Shown in pieces: positions 17,429 to 56,962 of a stretch of DNA of 64,000 nucleotides. The translations under genes and the position numbers were made by a program. Under the pieces are notes generated by a model. It searched no databases, had not been told where the DNA came from, and worked only from the letters and a program-made list of their open reading frames with translations. Each line of letters begins with the position of its first letter. Position 1 is the first letter of the stretch. This DNA comes from Nevskia sp. (GTDB taxonomy: Bacteria > Pseudomonadota > Gammaproteobacteria > Nevskiales > Nevskiaceae): NCBI GenBank assembly GCA_035651715.1, contig DASRFD010000150.1, forward strand, positions 128,860 through 192,859, written 5' to 3'.

Positions 17429-20400
17429 ATGGCTGACCAGGATAACGAAGAAAGCAAGCCCATCGACTGCCTGAATATCGCAGTCCTCGGCGCCTCCGCC
17501 GGCGGCGTGGAAGCGCTCTCGACGGTGGTTGCGCACCTGCCGGACGAGCCGGCGTTCGCGGCCGTGGTGCTGATGCACCTGGCAGCGGACCAGGAAAGCC
17601 AGCTGCCGGAGATTCTCGCCAAGCAGGCGCGCTGGCCGGTGGAGCCGATTGCCGGCGGGACCCCGCTGCAGCACGGGCGCATCTACGTATTGACCCCGGG
17701 CACGGTGGCCAGCGTGCGTGATCGGCGGCTGCTGACCATGCCCAGGGCCGAGGGCCTGAGCCGGCCGATCGACGAGTTCATGACCGCCGCGGCGGACGAG
17801 GAGGAGGTGCGCGCCGCGGCGGTGGTGCTCTCCGGCATGGGGAGCGACGGCGTCGCCGGCGCGCGCGAGATCAAGGCGGGCGGCGGACGGGTCATCGCGC
17901 AGGAGCCGCGCAGCGCCCTGCATGGCGGTATGCCCGAGGCGGTGATCGCCGAGCAGCTGGCTGACGAGGTGCTGGCGCCCGAGGCCGTCGGTCCCGCTCT
18001 GCTGCGCTATTTCCAGTCGCGCAGCGAGCGCTCGGAAGTGAATGACGCGCATGTCGAGGAGGCCCTGGCGCAGATCAAGCGCGGCCTCGGGGTCAACCTG
18101 GGCTACTACAAGGCGGTGAACGTGCGCCGGCGCCTGGCGCGCCGCGCCTTCCTGCAGGCCGGAGGCGACCTCGGCGCCTACATGCAGCGGCTGGAGGACG
18201 ACCGCGAGGAGCTGAAGGCGCTGCGCGACGACCTGCTCATCGGCGTGACCGGCTTCTTCCGCGACCCGGAGTTTGTCGGCGCGCTGGAACAGCATGTCCT
18301 TCCGGAGCTGCTGCAGGGCAGCCAGGAGATCCGCATCTGGGTGCCGGCCTGCTCCACCGGCGAGGAGGCGTATTCGATTGCGCTGCTGCTGCATCACACG
18401 CTGGAGAGCGCCGGACTGCATCGAAAGATGCAGGTGTTCGGCAGCGACATCAATGACGAGGCGATCCGCAAGGCCCGCATCGGACGCTATGACGCGGCGG
18501 CCGTGGCATCGATCCCGCCGATGCTGCGCGAGCGCTACCTGGTGGCGGAGGAAGGTGCCTGGCGCATCGCCAAGCCGGTGCGCGAGACCTGCGTTTTCGC
18601 GACGCATAACCTGTTCGTCAACGCGCCGTTCTCCAACGTCGACCTGGTTTCGGCGCGCAACCTGCTCATCTATGTGCGCAAGGCGGCCAAGCGCCATGCC
18701 TTCGAGGTGTTTTCCTACGCCCTGCGGCGCAACGGCAAGCTGCTGCTGGCGCCTTCGGAGGCGGCCGACCCGGAGCTTTTCGAAGACTACCAGCCGCAGC
18801 TGAGCCTGTACCGGCGGCGCCAGGTCACGCGGCCGCCCCTGCGCGGCTTCATTTTTGGCGAATCGGCTCCGACGGCAGTGACCGAGCGCCCGGAGGTGGC
18901 GGGGCCCTCGCTGGAAAGCGTCGTCGACCGGCTGGCCCTGGCGCGCTTCGAGCCCCCGGGCTTCGTCGTCGACACGCACGGCAGCGTGGTGCAGTTCCGC
19001 GGCGACACGGCGCACCTGCTCCAGCCCACCCGTGGAGACGCGGCGCTGTCGCTGGCCAAGCTGATCCATCCCGACCTGCAGGTGGATGTCCGCGCCGCCC
19101 TGATGGAGGCGGTGCACAGCAAGCTGACGGTGCGGCGCGAGCGGCTGCGTTTCGGCGACCGCCTGTGCACGCTTGAAGTGGTGCCGGTGCCGTCCGGCGG
19201 CGCGGAACGCTATTTCCTGGTCTCGGTCGACGACCGCGGCAGCACGCCGCCGCTGCCGGCGCCCGGTTCGCCCGACGGCCGCGCCGAGGACCTGGAGCGC
19301 TACGTGCGCGTGCTGGGAGACGAGCTGGAGCAGACCCGCGCCCAGCTCAAGCAGGTGGTGGTGGACTACGACGCCACCGGCGAGGAGCTGCGCACCGCCA
19401 ACGAGGAAGTGCTGTCGGCCAACGAGGAACTGCAAAGCTCCAACGAGGAGCTGCAAGAGGCCAAGCGGAGCCTGGAGGGGGCCAACGCCGACCTCGGCAC
19501 GTTGAACCAGCGCCTGCAGGAACGCAACGAGCAGCTCAGCGCGCTGAACGACGATTTGGGCAACCTGATCCGCGGCATCCCGGTACCGGTGCTGATGCTG
19601 GACCGCGACCGCTGCGTGCGCTACTTCACGCCGGCGGCGGCGGAGCTGCTGGGCCTGCACGAGTCCGACCTCGGGCGGCCGCTGCGCATCGACCCGGTGT
19701 TTGCGGACGGCGCGCTGGATGCGCCGCTGGACGAAGCGCTCGGGGAGCTGCGCCCGGTGCAGCGCGAAATCCAGGACGCCAACGGCCGCTGGTACGCGTT
19801 GCACGTGCGCGCCTACCAGACCAGCGAGAACCGCGTCGAGGGCGCGGTCTGCGCGCTGCAGGACATCCACGGCCTGAAGGTGTCGCTGGAAGCGGCCAAC
19901 AGCGCACGGGCCGAGGCCGAGCGGGCCAACGCGGCGAAGAACGATTTCCTCGCCCTGGTCAGCCACGAGCTGCGCTCGCCGCTGAACGTGATCGCCAACT
20001 GGGTGCAGCTGCTGCTGATCCTGAAGAAGGACCAGGGCGCGGACGAACGCGAGCGCAGGGGCCTGGACACCATCCACCGCCAATGCCAAAACCTGGCGCG
20101 GCTGATCGACGAACTGCTCGACATCTCGCGCATCACCAGCGGCCGCCTGGTGCTGGACCTGCGGCCGGTGGACCTGGCGGCGGTGGTGCGCGCCACGGTG
20201 GAGGCGCTGGAGCCGGGCGCCGACAGCAGGAAGGTGCGCCTGACCACGGCCGGGCTCAGCGACGAGTTGCGCATGGCCGGCGACACGCGCCGGCTGCAGC
20301 AGATCGTCGGCAACATCCTCGGGAATGCGCTGAAGTTCACGCCGGAAGGCGGCAAGGTGGAGGTGTCGCTGGCGCGCATCGGCACCGTGGCGGAACTGGC

Positions 20401-21192: not shown

Positions 21193-21268
21193 TGGTGGCC
21201 GGGGACGGAATCGAACCGCCGACACGGGGATTTTCAGTCCCCTGCTCTACCAACTGAGCTACCCGGCC
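21193..21268 (-). tRNA. tRNA-Phe (anticodon GAA)
   Basis: Reverse complement GGCCGGGTAGCTCAGTTGGTAGAGCAGGGGACTGAAAATCCCCGTGTCGGCGGTTCGATTCCGTCCCCGGCCACCA. 7-bp acceptor stem, GAA in a 7-nt anticodon loop, TTCGATT T-loop, encoded CCA. Confidence 0.9.
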
Positions 21269-28316: not shown

Positions 28317-28468
28317 GGGGACATCACCGCGGGTAACGCCAGGCACGCCGGGGGCGAAAGTTTAGCCGATGCGGCTTTCTCCCTCCGGGCCTGGGAGAGG
28401 GGCGCGCTGCGGACACGGCGGCACCGGGTGAATCCGCGCGGCGCATCGCTGCCCCGCAGGGACAGGGC

Positions 28469-55509: not shown

Positions 55510-55908
55510 TCAGCCGCGCAGGCGGGCACCGCGCCCGGCCAGCAGGGCGCGCAGCACGCTGCGGTGGCAACGCGCCTCGTCCTTGCAGTAGCAGCCCACC
55601 GCGAAGTCGCTGCTGTGCGACAGCGCCGCCAGCAGGTCCAGGGTGCGCGCGGCGTCGGGCTGGGCCATCTCCGCCCGGAACCTGCGCTCGAAGCGGCTCT
55701 AGCCCTTGGCGTCGTCGTCGGCCTGCGCCGCCAGGGCCTCGGCCACCAGTTCCGGGCTCGGCGAAAGCAGCGGCAGCCAGACATCGTAGTAATCGCGCGC
55801 AGCGAACTGCGCCTTGGGCACGCCGCGCGGCGGGCGCCGCACGGTGCCGATGCGCAGGCCTTCGCCGCGCGCACGCGGCGAGCCGAGCTGGACGATGGAA
55901 ATGGACAT
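55510..55908 (-). pseudogene. DUF488 (YeaO-like) gene interrupted by a single in-frame TAG at a conserved Trp position
   Basis: MSISIVQLGSPRARGEGLRIGTVRRPPRGVPKAQFAARDYYDVWLPLLSPSPELVAEALAAQADDDAKG[TAG]SRFERRFRAEMAQ...LLYAAK-like...GCYCKDEARCHRSVLRALL. The TAG at 55699-55701 aligns with the W of the conserved W-x-x-F-(K/R)-R-R-Y block (TGG to TAG). Confidence 0.6.
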
Positions 55909-55985
55909 GGGCCGGCACCTCTGCTGGTCGGGCCCGCCCACAGTAGCAGCTTGCCGCGCCGGGCCAAATCGCCCGGGCGGTGCGC

Positions 55986-56354
55986 TCAGGCCGCCAGGCG
56001 TTTGCGGATGGCGATCAGCGCCGCCGGCAACAGCGCCGCGGCGATGGCCACGGTGTCCGCCACCCAGTCCAGCAGCTCCGCATCGCGGTGCAGCGCCGGG
56101 ATCATCTGCACGAACTCGATCAGGGCGCCGAACGCGGACAGCACCGCGCCGATGCCGAGCAGGCTGCGGCGCGGATAGGCCGCGGCGGCGAGGAAGGCCA
56201 GCACGTAGAAGGCGAGGAAGTGCTGCGCCTTGTCCCACGGCAGCACCTCCGGCGACTCCTCGGCCGGCACCACGGCGGCAGTGAAGGCGACCGCCAGCGC
56301 GATCCAGAACGCGACGCGGAGCAGGCGGGTTGCGGTGCGGGGAGACAGTGGCAT
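55986..56354 (-). CDS. VanZ-like family membrane protein
   Basis: 4 TM. LAFWIALAVAFTAAVVP...HFLAFYVLAFLAAAAY pattern. Start either ATG 56396 or ATG 56354. Confidence 0.5.
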   Translation of the reverse strand: MPLSPRTATRLLRVAFWIALAVAFTAAVVPAEESPEVLPWDKAQHFLAFYVLAFLAAAAYPRRSLLGIGAVLSAFGALIEFVQMIPALHRDAELLDWVADTVAIAAALLPAALIAIRKRLAA

Positions 56355-56406
56355 GGGTGTCGAGGCGTTTAGTTGATCGAATGAATCGGCCGACATGCTA
56401 AGCGTT

Positions 56407-56942
56407 TCACACCCTCTCCCGCTGGGAGAGGGCCTGGGGTGAGGGGCGCAGCCGGCATCTCACAGCAACGCACGCCGAGAGCGCGCCCCTCACCCGCCGC
56501 TGCGCGGCGGCCTCTCCCGGTGGGAGAGGCGGCTATGAAGGCTCCACCACTGACCCGGCCGGCGCCGCTTCGTTCCAAACATGCCGCGAGTTCCCGCCGC
56601 AAGCGATCTCACTCCCCTCTCCCGCCGGGAGAGGGGCCGGGGGTGAGGGGCGCAGCCGGCATCTCACCGCAACGCACGCCGAGAGCGCGCCCCTCACCCG
56701 CCGCTGCGCGGCGGCCTCTCCCGGCGGGAGAGGCGGCTATGAAGGCTCCACCACTGACCGGACCGGCGCCGCTTCGTTCCAACATGCCGGGGTTCCGCCG
56801 CAAGCGATCTCACACCCCTCTCCAGCCGGGAGAGGGGCCTGGGGTGAGGGACGCAGCCGGCATCACCGCAACGCACGCCGAGAGCGCGCCCCTCACCCGC
56901 CGCTGCGCGGCGGCCTCTCCCGGCGGGAGAGGCGGCTATGAC
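56407..56942. repeat. Tandem array: 2.65 copies of a ~201-bp hairpin-rich intergenic repeat (REP-like composite)
   Basis: Copies start at 56407, 56609 and 56810 (partial), >90% identical. Each unit holds hairpin A CCCTCTCCC-N4-GGGAGAGGG and hairpin B CCTCTCCCGG-N2-GGGAGAGG. A 13-bp inverted repeat GGGTGAGGGGCGC...GCGCCCCTCACCC encloses a ~40-nt loop. Not CRISPR: the spacers between hairpins are themselves repeated. Confidence 0.85.
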
Positions 56943-56962
56943 CCCTTACCGCCCGATACCCG

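What the first reader, a model, noticed from the sequence alone, without database searches (positions are those of the whole stretch)
56407..56942. 2.65 tandem copies of a ~201-bp hairpin-dense repeat between two minus-strand genes; related solo elements elsewhere
Units begin at 56407, 56609 and 56810 with only a few substitutions between them. Each unit holds two similar perfect hairpins, CCCTCTCCC-N4-GGGAGAGGG and CCTCTCCCGG-N2-GGGAGAGG. Each also has a 13-bp inverted repeat GGGTGAGGGGCGC...GCGCCCCTCACCC enclosing a 40-nt loop. Solo, partial versions of the same hairpin family occur at about 6221-6263 (gcccctcacgccggCCCTCTCCCgaacGGGAAGAGGG) and about 28376-28410 (CTCCCTCCGGGCCTGGGAGAGGGGCGCGC), so this is a dispersed REP-like family that here has amplified as a composite tandem array. 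It is not CRISPR, because everything between hairpins is repeated. It could be a structured sRNA array, a REP/BIME-like element affecting mRNA stability of the flanking MFS and VanZ genes, or a recombination hotspot. The spurious 219-aa ORF 56439..57098 is its translation.
Basis: seen in the sequence. Interest (0 to 1): 0.6.

Follow-up and report, generated by a model that had tools for sequence, protein, structure and literature searches.

The report
Tandem array of BoxC-like palindromic repeats
The 540-bp repeat between two genes of a Nevskia bacterium is non-coding: it is a locally amplified copy of a known kind of palindromic "junk-like" intergenic repeat (the BoxC / triplex-motif family of E. 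coli), and its copy number differs between strains, so it is a real but fairly ordinary unstable repeat.

Summary
Window 56400-56941 carries 2.7 tandem copies of a 201-204 bp unit at 93% identity. Each unit is a 122-nt palindromic module plus a 75-80 nt linker that has no match elsewhere.

The module is an inverted pair of the motif CCCTCTCCC-n3-GGGAGAGGG-n4/5-GGGTGAGGG. This motif is already described in E. coli as BoxC, PIT element or TM_ECO "intrastrand triplex motif" (Holder et al. 2015). One half has a short second loop. In the other half the second loop is a 15-nt mini-hairpin.

Full modules are dispersed in related Nevskia genomes at 75-83% identity. The same architecture occurs in Archangium, Alphaproteobacteria and Xanthomonas sacchari, which has its own 4.4-copy tandem array.

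A strain about 97% identical has 3.2 copies at this locus, with mosaic units and a terminal module collapsed to one hairpin. A sister species (~89%) has no module there. The array is therefore a variable-number repeat made by unequal recombination or slippage.

The 219-aa ORF is spurious. There is no Rfam hit and no promoter or terminator consensus. The function of the family is unknown, and an effect on the MFS/VanZ mRNA is possible but untested. I rate it a new variant of a known kind, of modest interest.

The parts
56400..56941 (.). Whole tandem array: module-linker-module-linker-module, 2.65 units of 201-204 bp
   Evidence: TRF, period 204, 2.7 copies, 93% matches. Unit alignment A1.
56410..56533 (+). 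Module 1. It consists of hairpin A, long hairpin B, mini-hairpin C and hairpin D, and is an inverted pair of BoxC/TM-type motifs.
   Evidence: nhmmer with the module profile, E = 1e-26. Aligns end to end to dispersed Nevskia copies.
56613..56737 (+). Module 2
   Evidence: nhmmer E = 5e-24; blastn 75-83% to six Nevskia MAG copies.
56814..56936 (+). Module 3, the last one, followed directly by unique sequence and the MFS stop codon
   Evidence: nhmmer E = 1e-23; alignment A1.
56412..56445 (+). Short-loop triplex-type motif, CCCTCTCCC-GCT-GGGAGAGGG-CCTG-GGGTGAGGG. Equivalent copies lie at 56615-56649 and 56816-56850. Its G-rich part, with the next G (56424-56446), matches the canonical G-quadruplex pattern.
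   Evidence: Pattern scans; G4 pattern; compared with E. coli Table 1 of PMC4666352.
56487..56530 (-). Long-loop motif on the opposite strand, GCCTCTCCC-n3-GGGAGAGG-CCGCCGCGCAGCGGC-GGGTGAGGG. Equivalent copies lie at 56691-56734 and 56890-56933.
   Evidence: The 43-nt core of this motif (CCTCTCCC...GGGTGAGGG), in the form carried by units 2 and 3, is also present in Nevskia MAG locus L013.
56437..56495 (.). Hairpin B: 13-bp arms GGGTGAGGGGCGC / GCGCCCCTCACCC around a 33-nt spacer. Equivalent copies lie at 56641-56699 and 56842-56898.
   Evidence: the repeat finder I24.
56494..56510 (.). Mini-hairpin C, CCGCCGC-TGC-GCGGCGG. Equivalent copies lie at 56698-56714 and 56897-56913.
   Evidence: the repeat finder I19-I23. 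Compensatory changes across 13 distinct modules, with 81/84 pairs Watson-Crick and 8 different arm sequences.
56534..56612 (.). Linker 1, about 78 nt, not palindromic. Linker 2 is 56738-56813. The linker is found only in this locus and in the sister strain.
   Evidence: No blastn match in any fetched locus or elsewhere in the window. Present in L066.
56355..56399 (-). Unique leader between the array and the VanZ-like start codon. It is homologous to the sister species' spacer.
   Evidence: Local alignment to L064 5620-5673; sequences.
55986..56354 (-). VanZ-like gene (122 aa if it starts at the ATG at 56354), downstream of the array
   Evidence: Pfam VanZ E = 0.0013, below cutoff. The orthologue in L064 starts at the equivalent Met.
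56963..58429 (-). DHA2/EmrB-type MFS efflux transporter gene. Its stop codon lies 26 nt from module 3.
   Evidence: Pfam MFS_1 E = 1e-50. 100% identical to P0001. A cluster member is named "MAG TPA Nevskia sp.".
56439..57098 (+). Spurious 219-aa ORF that reads through the array. It stays open because the periods 204 and 201 are multiples of 3.
   Evidence: Flat GC at codon positions, 0.72/0.76/0.77. No Pfam family. Its only database relative is the same array in another strain.
6229..6263 (-). Solo, degenerate single motif of the same family in another intergenic spacer
   Evidence: Fuzzy pattern hit with 0 expected in Markov controls; nhmmer E = 0.002; sequence.

Best explanation
**What it is.** The feature is a non-coding, variable-number tandem array. 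Its core is a 122-nt palindromic intergenic repeat module.

**Module anatomy.**
- The module is an inverted pair of BoxC / PIT / "TM" motifs. Each motif has a C-rich stem, a complementary G-rich stem and a mirror-repeated G-rich stem.
- One motif has a short second loop.
- In the other motif the second loop is a 15-nt mini-hairpin.
- The two GGGTGAGGGGCGC arms face each other across a 33-nt spacer.

**Shown.**
- A copy of this dispersed element sits in the MFS-VanZ spacer of this Nevskia lineage.
- The module together with about 80 bp of adjacent spacer was duplicated in tandem.
- The resulting direct repeats keep recombining or slipping. This gives different copy numbers and mosaic units between strains, and it has collapsed one module to a single hairpin through its two near-identical small hairpins.

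**Inferred.**
- The element probably has no dedicated cellular function at this locus.
- It persists because spacers next to gene 3' ends tolerate it.
- Its consequences are most likely by-products. At the DNA level, the palindromes and G-runs (hairpin, cruciform, G4 or triplex potential) promote slippage and local hypervariability. At the RNA level, if MFS and VanZ are co-transcribed, very stable hairpins sit in the inter-cistronic transcript. These could protect the MFS message or damp read-through into VanZ.
For: **The array is real and non-random.**

**The motif matches a known family.**
- It equals the E. coli BoxC/PIT/TM_ECO sequences listed in PMC4666352.
- The E. coli hrpB-mrcB spacer shows the same inverted-pair layout and aligns with the module.

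**The module, not the unit, is the dispersed element.**
- blastn covers unit positions 11-132 at 75-83% in six loci of a Nevskia MAG.
- It gives 73% in Archangium, 70% in an alphaproteobacterial MAG and 72% in X. sacchari. The linker matches nothing.
- The sister-species locus L064 was fetched through the MFS protein, so it was not selected for carrying the repeat. It holds two further modules elsewhere.

**The locus is variable.**
- Strain L066 has 97.3% identical flanks and 3.2 copies.
- Diagnostic variants are shared in a mosaic pattern. Window unit 2 resembles the L066 unit-2 module joined to the L066 unit-3 linker.
- The terminal module in L066 is collapsed to one hairpin, made of the left half of hairpin A fused to the right half of hairpin D.
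- The sister species L064 (~89% nt, same gene order) has a 231-nt spacer without any module.
- Tandem amplification recurs independently in X. sacchari: period 141, 4.4 copies.

**It is not coding and not a known RNA.**

**Published work fits this picture.** The family showed no promoter or terminator activity in E. coli. Triplex formation was seen only in isolated single strands. Loci carrying it were more variable between strains, including a "palindrome effect" of partial deletions that leave a hairpin (PMC4666352).
Against: - No transcript data exist for this organism, so a real RNA-level role cannot be excluded.
- Mini-hairpin C keeps its pairing through compensatory changes, and the other stems are conserved in sequence across phyla. 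This looks like selection, or a specific recognition or copying mechanism, rather than pure junk.
- In the Nevskia loci most modules lie 1-30 nt after a stop codon. That would also fit a 3'-end function.
- Copy numbers come from short-read metagenome assemblies, which can mis-resolve 200-bp repeats.
- The source genome itself could not be scanned, so the family's copy number there is unknown.
Confidence: 0.7

Rival explanations
1. REP/BIME-like cis-acting RNA element. When transcribed with the MFS gene, the stacked GC-rich hairpins would block 3'-to-5' exonucleases or partly attenuate read-through. This would set the MFS:VanZ expression ratio, and copy number would tune the effect.
For: - The array lies between two co-directional genes, 26 nt after the MFS stop, and no promoter consensus was found for VanZ.
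- Both strands fold far better than shuffles, z about -7.
- Most Nevskia modules abut stop codons.
- Two stem substitutions, in window unit 3 arm B and in L066 unit 2 hairpin C, are G-to-A on the plus strand. They keep G-U pairing only in the mRNA-sense strand.
- Mini-hairpin C covaries.
Against: - PIT/TM elements showed no terminator or promoter activity and no effect on RNA polymerase in E. coli (PMC4666352).
- Orientation relative to transcription is not fixed. It is four one way and one the other in Nevskia, and the opposite way in Archangium.
- The X. sacchari array sits between divergent genes.
- No U-tract follows any hairpin.
- The sister species manages without it.
- Two G-U-compatible substitutions are too few to count as evidence.
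Confidence: 0.2
2. Non-autonomous mobile element (REPIN- or MITE-like) moved by an unidentified trans-acting enzyme that recognises the invariant arms. Arrays would arise from its activity, not only from host recombination.
For: - The inverted-doublet architecture is that of REPINs (PMC3337134).
- Modules have sharp ends and are present or absent between related genomes.
- Stems are conserved in sequence, while the spacer and mini-hairpin vary, across Gamma- and Alphaproteobacteria and Myxococcota.
- Independent arrays occur in two genera.
Against: - The GTAG/CGTC tag typical of REP superfamilies is absent.
- No target-site duplication is evident from the flanks.
- The duplicated linker shows that this array grew by duplicating flank plus element, not by repeated insertion.
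- No transposase has been linked to BoxC in 30 years. Holder et al. found no association with transposons, phages or plasmids.
- The full unit is absent from the phage and plasmid collections.
Confidence: 0.2
3. Array of small structured RNA genes, with each unit transcribed as a discrete sRNA.
For: Strong predicted structure and a repeated unit that includes a non-palindromic segment.
Against: - No Rfam family reaches threshold. Sub-threshold hits are to eukaryotic and viral families, plus one sub-threshold Caulobacter sRNA, and are chance-level.
- No promoter- or terminator-like sites.
- The linker is not conserved outside this strain pair.
- The element is palindromic, so its structure says nothing about which strand would be used.
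Confidence: 0.04
4. A repeat-containing protein gene: the 219-aa ORF, with a 243-aa counterpart in the other strain.
For: The ORF stays open across the array because the periods are multiples of 3.
Against: - GC at codon positions is flat, unlike every neighbouring gene.
- No Pfam match.
- Only one relative among 5.8 billion proteins, and that is the same locus.
- It overlaps the 3' end of the MFS gene on the opposite strand.
- Between strains the frame is not preserved at the 3' end.
Confidence: 0.02

Closest known systems
BoxC / PIT elements / TM_ECO intrastrand-triplex motifs of E. coli and other Proteobacteria (Bergler 1992; Hoyne et al. 2000; Holder et al. 2015, PMC4666352). The same motif is described as a G-quadruplex-hairpin-duplex switch by Doluca, Kaplan and co-authors (bioRxiv 10.1101/032615).
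   Same: - Same three-block motif, CCCTCTCCC / GGGAGAGGG / GGGTGAGGG, with loops that vary.
- Intergenic position.
- Occurrence as inverted pairs of two different subtypes on opposite strands.
- The G-rich half matches the G4 pattern.
- Loci vary between strains, including partial deletions that leave a hairpin.
   Different: - The second loop is 4-5 nt in one half and a 15-nt mini-hairpin in the other, not the 3 nt of the published pattern.
- The third block is extended to a 13-nt arm, GGGTGAGGGGCGC.
- The spacer between the halves is 33 nt, against 16 nt in the E. coli example.
- The host is a 70% GC Nevskia.
- The pair has been tandemly amplified together with an 80-bp linker. I did not find this described for BoxC in the papers I searched and read.
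BIME-2 clusters of REP (PU) sequences in enterobacteria, and REPINs (REP doublets) of Pseudomonas
   Same: - Alternating-orientation palindromic units joined by linkers into clusters.
- Cluster copy number is polymorphic between strains (BIME-2; from my own knowledge of Bachellier et al.).
- The inverted-doublet hairpin architecture is as in REPINs (PMC3337134, PMC3333891).
   Different: - No GTAG/CGTC tag.
- No known RAYT partner.
- The unit sequence is unrelated to PU/REP.
- Here the linker is long and is clearly duplicated local sequence.
Tandem array of related modules in the Xanthomonas sacchari R1 508-kb replicon (NZ_CP010410.1, about 409.1-409.7 kb)
   Same: - Same module plan: small hairpin, long hairpin with GGGTGAGGG-type arms, GCCCC-TGC-GGGGC mini-hairpin, small hairpin.
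- Repeated head to tail 4.4 times at 91% identity.
   Different: - Period is 141 nt, with only a ~12-nt linker.
- It lies between divergent genes rather than after a stop codon.
- The arms are GGGTGAGGGTACG, and the last small hairpin is CCTTCTCCC/GGGAGAAGG.
- Identity to the window module is only 72%.

Membership tests
BoxC / PIT / TM_ECO (pattern of Holder et al. 2015) | 9-nt C-rich stem CCCTCNCCC, a first loop of 3-6 nt, and the complementary stem GGGNGAGGG | tested here: met
   All three short-loop copies carry CCCTCTCCC-n3-GGGAGAGGG, with one substitution in unit 3.
BoxC / PIT / TM_ECO (pattern of Holder et al. 2015) | Second loop of exactly 3 nt before the second G-rich stem GGGNGAGGG | tested here: not met
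   The strict pattern finds nothing in the window. With the loop relaxed to 3-6 nt, two copies match. The loops are CCTG or GCCGG (a 3-nt loop can be read in units 2 and 3 if the stems are counted as 10 nt) and 15 nt in the opposite-strand copies.
BoxC / PIT / TM_ECO (pattern of Holder et al. 2015) | Second G-rich stem that mirrors the first (GGGTGAGGG) | tested here: met
   Present in all six motifs of the array.
BoxC / PIT / TM_ECO (pattern of Holder et al. 2015) | Intergenic, dispersed in multiple copies, often as inverted pairs of two subtypes | tested here: met
   - Intergenic in the window.
- Dispersed in Nevskia MAG loci and in L064.
- Inverted pair of a short-loop and a long-loop subtype, comparable to the E. 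coli type A plus type B pairs.
BoxC / PIT / TM_ECO (pattern of Holder et al. 2015) | Forms an intrastrand purine-motif triplex as an isolated single strand | not testable with these tools
   Needs CD or NMR on oligonucleotides. Only the sequence requirement (mirror G-blocks) can be seen.
BoxC / PIT / TM_ECO (pattern of Holder et al. 2015) | Loci show raised structural variability between close strains | tested here: met
   - 2.65 copies in the window against 3.2 in L066, with one collapsed module, at 97% flank identity.
- Absent from the orthologous spacer of L064.
REP / REPIN (RAYT-associated) | GTAG or CGTC tetranucleotide tag at one end of the palindrome (PMC3733652) | tested here: not met
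   No GTAG, CTAC or CGTC occurs in the array. The single GACG is created by a unit-3 substitution.
REP / REPIN (RAYT-associated) | Two inverted repeat units separated by a spacer, the whole able to form a long hairpin | tested here: met
   Module architecture.
REP / REPIN (RAYT-associated) | A cognate RAYT (Y1 transposase) gene in the genome, flanked by the repeats | not tested
   The source genome could not be scanned, and only 64 kb is available.
MITE | Terminal inverted repeats plus a target-site duplication | tested here: inconclusive
   - Inverted termini are inherent to the palindrome.
- The flanks of nine copies show no consistent duplication.
- The one orthologous filled/empty pair (CDH-LysR spacer) is too diverged to read.
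CRISPR array | Conserved repeats separated by unique spacers | tested here: not met
   Everything between the hairpins is repeated as well.
Any Rfam RNA family | Match at the family's gathering score | tested here: not met
   Only a tRNA elsewhere in the window passes threshold. Relaxed-threshold hits in the array score 13-18 bits against cutoffs of 35-60.
Intrinsic terminator | GC-rich hairpin followed by a U-run | tested here: not met
   0 terminator-like sites on either strand in 55900-57100.

The most novel reading that the evidence does not exclude
The 122-nt module is a distinct, directional element, not just two BoxC motifs that happen to be adjacent. It combines stems conserved in sequence, a mini-hairpin that covaries, and a free-running central spacer. 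It would be copied or maintained by a still unknown sequence-specific factor shared across Gammaproteobacteria, Alphaproteobacteria and Myxococcota. Tandem arrays such as this one and the X. sacchari one would be footprints of that activity. Finding the factor would finally explain a repeat family that has been known since 1992 without a mechanism.
Probability: 0.12. Interest if true: 0.6.

Novelty: new variant of a known kind. Interest (0 to 1): 0.3.

Why it matters
BoxC / PIT / triplex-motif repeats have been known for three decades. They occur in hundreds of proteobacterial genomes, yet they have no established function or spreading mechanism.

This locus adds three things:
- **A natural example of instability.** Close strains differ in copy number, have mosaic units, and in one case carry a module collapsed to a hairpin. 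This supports the published link between these motifs and local genome instability.
- **A defined composite form.** The 122-nt module has one half carrying a covarying mini-hairpin, and it recurs across phyla.
- **Recurrent tandem amplification.** Such modules have amplified in tandem in at least two genera.

On the practical side, gene callers translate the array into a fake repeat protein. It could also serve as a strain-typing marker for Nevskia. None of this overturns current understanding.

Tried and rejected
**Looking up the source contig**
- Exact-sequence look-ups of the VanZ protein, the MFS protein and P0001 found no record. The source contig could not be fetched.
- The P0004 locus had no DNA available.

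**Collection scans**
It found 14 loci. The five actinomycete ones (four Streptomyces, one Streptosporangium) lack the flanking small hairpins and are unrelated.
- The single metagenome scan, with the VanZ protein, returned only distant relatives of 62% or less. It was of little use for this locus.

**Orthologous loci**
- MFS orthologues at 84-89% nt identity to the window (85-89% protein identity; L015/L016, L017, L062, L063) have different neighbours and no array.

**Origin of the linker**
- Apart from about 13 nt next to hairpin A, the linker shows no significant similarity to the array flanks or to the sister spacer.
- A possible relation to the VanZ leader, requiring a 12-nt indel, is only my reading by eye.

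**Empty-site comparison**
- Comparing the CDH-LysR spacer (module in L064, none in the window) failed, because the spacers are too diverged.

**Covariation**
- Covariation analysis of the main stems is uninformative, because they are conserved in sequence and the sample was selected on the B arms.

**Readings rejected**
- Known Rfam family, at both thresholds.
- Promoter or terminator.
- Coding potential and Pfam membership of the ORF.
- CRISPR.
- GTAG/CGTC-tagged REP.

**Other searches**
- Phage and plasmid collections contain motif halves but never the full unit.
- One literature search was badly targeted and returned nothing useful.
- A search for RIME elements was not followed up.
Full report
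**Observation**

Tandem Repeats Finder reports a single long-period array in the window: 56400-56941, period 204, 2.7 copies, 93% matches. The three units, starting near 56400, 56604 and 56806, align with a handful of substitutions and small indels. The third unit stops after 136 nt.

The small hairpins and the 13-bp inverted repeat are all there.
- The pattern CCTCTCCC-n-GGGAGAGG occurs five times exactly, only inside the array, against none in 100 shuffles.
- GGGTGAGGGGCGC and its complement occur in every unit.

The small loops are 3 nt, and the long hairpin encloses 33 nt.

The window has 70% G+C. The array lies between two minus-strand genes.
- One is a DHA2/EmrB-type MFS transporter, 56963-58429 (Pfam MFS_1, E = 1e-50).
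- The other is a small membrane protein with a weak VanZ match.
- Comparison with an orthologue shows that the VanZ-like gene most likely starts at the ATG at 56354. The spacer is therefore 56355-56962, 608 nt.

**Anatomy of a unit**

Each unit consists of a 122-nt palindromic module and a 75-80 nt linker that is not palindromic.

The module reads, on the plus strand:
- hairpin A, CCCTCTCCC-n3-GGGAGAGGG;
- 4-5 nt;
- the left arm of hairpin B, GGGTGAGGGGCGC;
- a 33-nt spacer;
- the right arm of hairpin B, GCGCCCCTCACCC;
- mini-hairpin C, CCGCCGC-TGC-GCGGCGG;
- hairpin D, GCCTCTCCC-n3-GGGAGAGGC.

Read as two halves, the module is an inverted pair of one three-block motif: a C-rich stem, the complementary G-rich stem, and a mirror G-rich stem. 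On the plus strand the second loop is short. On the minus strand the second loop is the 15-nt mini-hairpin.

**What the motif is**

A full-text search for the two G-rich blocks led to Holder et al. 2015 (PMC4666352). Its Table 1 lists the 23 E. coli K-12 "TM_ECO" sequences, for example CCCTCTCCCTGTGGGAGAGGGCCGGGGTGAGGGC.

The paper states that this is the BoxC repeat of the 1990s and the "PIT" element of Hoyne/Maher. According to the paper:
- It found 3610 copies in 262 proteobacterial genomes.
- In K-12 the motif is always intergenic. Five times it forms inverted pairs of a type A and a type B motif.
- It showed no promoter or terminator activity.
- It formed a triplex only as an isolated strand, not detectably in vivo.
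- It marked loci that vary more between strains than control spacers do. This included partial deletions of palindromic pairs that leave a hairpin.

A second paper describes the same motif as a potential G-quadruplex/hairpin switch. The three short-loop copies here match the canonical G4 pattern on the plus strand.

I fetched the E. coli hrpB-mrcB spacer. It has the same layout, motif - 16-nt spacer - inverted motif, and it aligns with the module.

The published strict pattern requires a 3-nt second loop. No copy here meets it. With a 3-6 nt loop, two copies match. I therefore treat the element as a variant of the family, not a strict member.

**Is it dispersed?**

Within the window, only one further member exists: a degenerate single motif at 6229-6263 on the minus strand. 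The site at 28376 is not a member.

Outside the window the picture is clear.
- A scan of one genome per species with the hairpin-B pattern gave 14 loci.
- Six of these are in one Nevskia MAG. One is in Archangium and two are in alphaproteobacterial MAGs.
- All nine have the small hairpins on both sides, but their central spacers differ.
- blastn shows that similarity covers exactly unit positions 11-132. Identity is 75-83% in Nevskia, 73% in Archangium and 70% in an alphaproteobacterium. The linker matches nothing.
- The 43-nt core of the long-loop half carried by window units 2 and 3 is also present in Nevskia locus L013.

The window itself is from a Nevskia. Its MFS protein is 100% identical to a metagenome protein. 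A cluster member of the same length is named "MAG TPA ... Nevskia sp.".

A locus fetched through the MFS protein, and therefore not selected for the repeat, is L064 from the sister MAG. It contains two more full modules, one 30 nt after the LCAT stop and one 1 nt after the CDH stop.

Motif halves also occur on replicons of cyanobacteria, Cupriavidus, Sulfitobacter and others. A full module occurs in X. sacchari.

**Conservation pattern**

Across 13 aligned modules, the stems of A, D and the B arms are conserved in sequence. Covariation therefore cannot be assessed there, and the B arms were fixed by the search pattern.

Mini-hairpin C is different.
- It shows eight different arm sequences in 13 distinct modules.
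- 81 of 84 pairs are Watson-Crick.
- Changes on both sides occur at four positions.

The central spacer varies freely.

**How the array arose and behaves**

Searching the spurious ORF against the protein collection returned a single relative. It comes from a 3.6-kb JGI contig, L066, that carries the same genes.
- L066's sequence is 97.3-97.9% identical to the window.
- Its array has 3.2 copies with period 201.
- Its layout is module-linker three times, followed by a single hairpin, CCCCTCTCCCGCCGGGAGAGGCGGC.
- That hairpin is the left half of hairpin A fused to the right half of hairpin D. It is the "palindrome effect" deletion described for E. coli.

Diagnostic variants are shared between units in a mosaic way.
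- The first units correspond to each other.
- Window unit 2 looks like the L066 unit-2 module joined to the L066 unit-3 linker.
- This is what unequal crossing-over or slippage between units produces.
- Point divergence of corresponding first units (6/201) is no higher than in the flanks, so the variability is structural.

In the sister species (L064, ~89% nt, same order LCAT...MFS-VanZ-DUF488...CDH-LysR) the spacer is 231 nt and has no module. It carries an unrelated element with ATTCCCGC...GCGGGAAT ends. Only the ~45 nt next to the VanZ start is alignable.

The module therefore arrived, and was amplified together with ~80 bp of flank, after the two species split and before the two strains split.

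An independent tandem array of related modules exists in X. sacchari: period 141, 4.4 copies, 91% identity, linker ~12 nt. Tandem amplification is thus a recurring fate of these modules.

**What it is not**
- It is not a protein gene. GC at codon positions of the 219-aa ORF is flat (0.72/0.76/0.77), while neighbouring genes have GC3 of 0.87-0.94, and there is no Pfam match.
- It is not a known RNA family.
- No sigma-70-like promoter or intrinsic terminator lies in 55900-57100.
- It is not CRISPR.
- It is not a GTAG/CGTC-tagged REP.

**Mechanism**

The following is shown:
- The array is built from a dispersed palindromic module of the BoxC/TM kind, plus duplicated local sequence.
- Its copy number and integrity differ between close strains.

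The following is inferred:
- The direct repeats, helped by the palindromes and G-runs, undergo slippage or unequal recombination.
- The element has no dedicated function at this locus.
- Its RNA hairpins are incidental if MFS and VanZ are co-transcribed.

The main rival is a REP/BIME-like role in the transcript. Several observations favour it:
- Most Nevskia modules sit 1-30 nt after stop codons.
- Predicted folding is strong, z about -7 on both strands.
- Two stem substitutions remain G-U-compatible only in the mRNA sense.

Other observations weaken it:
- The E. coli promoter and terminator tests were negative.
- Orientation relative to transcription is inconsistent.
- The X. sacchari array lies between divergent genes.
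- The sister species lacks the element at this locus.

A REPIN-like mobile-element reading stays open, because the ends are sharp and the stems are conserved across phyla. No tag, target duplication or partner enzyme is known.

**Verdict**

It is best explained as a strain-variable tandem amplification of a BoxC/PIT/triplex-motif pair. It is a new variant of a known kind and of modest interest.

Caveats:
- Copy numbers come from metagenome assemblies.
- The source genome could not be scanned.
- There are no expression data.

Noticed in passing
L064 5470-5565; also L017 4470-4640 and L065 3925-3944: In the sister Nevskia species the spacer after the MFS gene holds a different palindromic element. 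Its ends read GTCATTCCCGCGAAAGCGGGAATCC ... CCCGCTTTCGCGGGGATGACGAC, which is reminiscent of the neisserial dRS3 ATTCCC-n8-GGGAAT repeats. It is absent from the window. The same spacer is thus occupied by different repeat families in related genomes.
   Followed up: partly
L067 1053-1673 (Xanthomonas sacchari R1, NZ_CP010410.1, about 409.1-409.7 kb): An independent 4.4-copy tandem array (period 141, 91% identity) of related four-hairpin modules lies between divergent SDR and LLM oxidoreductase genes. That replicon has 20 places matching the module.
   Followed up: partly
plasmid hits H16-H44: One half of the X. sacchari module matches many Rhizobium, Shinella, Phyllobacterium and Azospirillum replicons at 84-93%. 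This half runs CCCTCATCC, then GCCCC-TGC-GGGGC, then CCTTCTCCC-n4-GGGAGAAGG. It may correspond to a described rhizobial intergenic repeat such as RIME, which I did not check.
   Followed up: no
window 56352-56396: The longest ORF for the VanZ-like gene starts at 56396, 4 nt from the array. The orthologues start at the Met encoded at 56354-56352, and most relatives align only from residue ~24. The 136-aa form is probably an over-extension.
   Followed up: yes
window 54.5-61.6 kb versus L064: The neighbourhood is a variable region.
- The sister MAG has an exosortase (EpsH) gene plus a 215-aa gene between DUF488 and CDH. The window lacks both.
- It also has a cholesterol-oxidase-like FAD gene where the window has two other plus-strand ORFs, which I did not annotate.
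   Followed up: partly
L068 1130-1250 (Cupriavidus sp. EM10 chromid NZ_CP076061.1): Two motifs of the family sit here in the opposite mutual arrangement, with the GGGTGAGGG blocks outward and the small hairpins inward, about 40 nt apart. The replicon has 19 matching places.
   Followed up: no
L063 2280-2400 and 2589-2756 (FTAG01002331.1): In this relative the VanZ-like gene lies upstream of the MFS gene. The 750-nt spacer holds degenerate motifs of the family and a small ORF that looks by eye like a ribbon-helix-helix protein, [35 protein letters not shown]....
   Followed up: no
window 19381-19487: Two overlapping 21-nt-period tandem repeats (3.4-3.6 copies, 74-75% matches). They are probably a heptad-type coding repeat.
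   Followed up: no
window 21196-21268 (minus strand): The only Rfam match in the window at gathering threshold is a tRNA gene.
   Followed up: no
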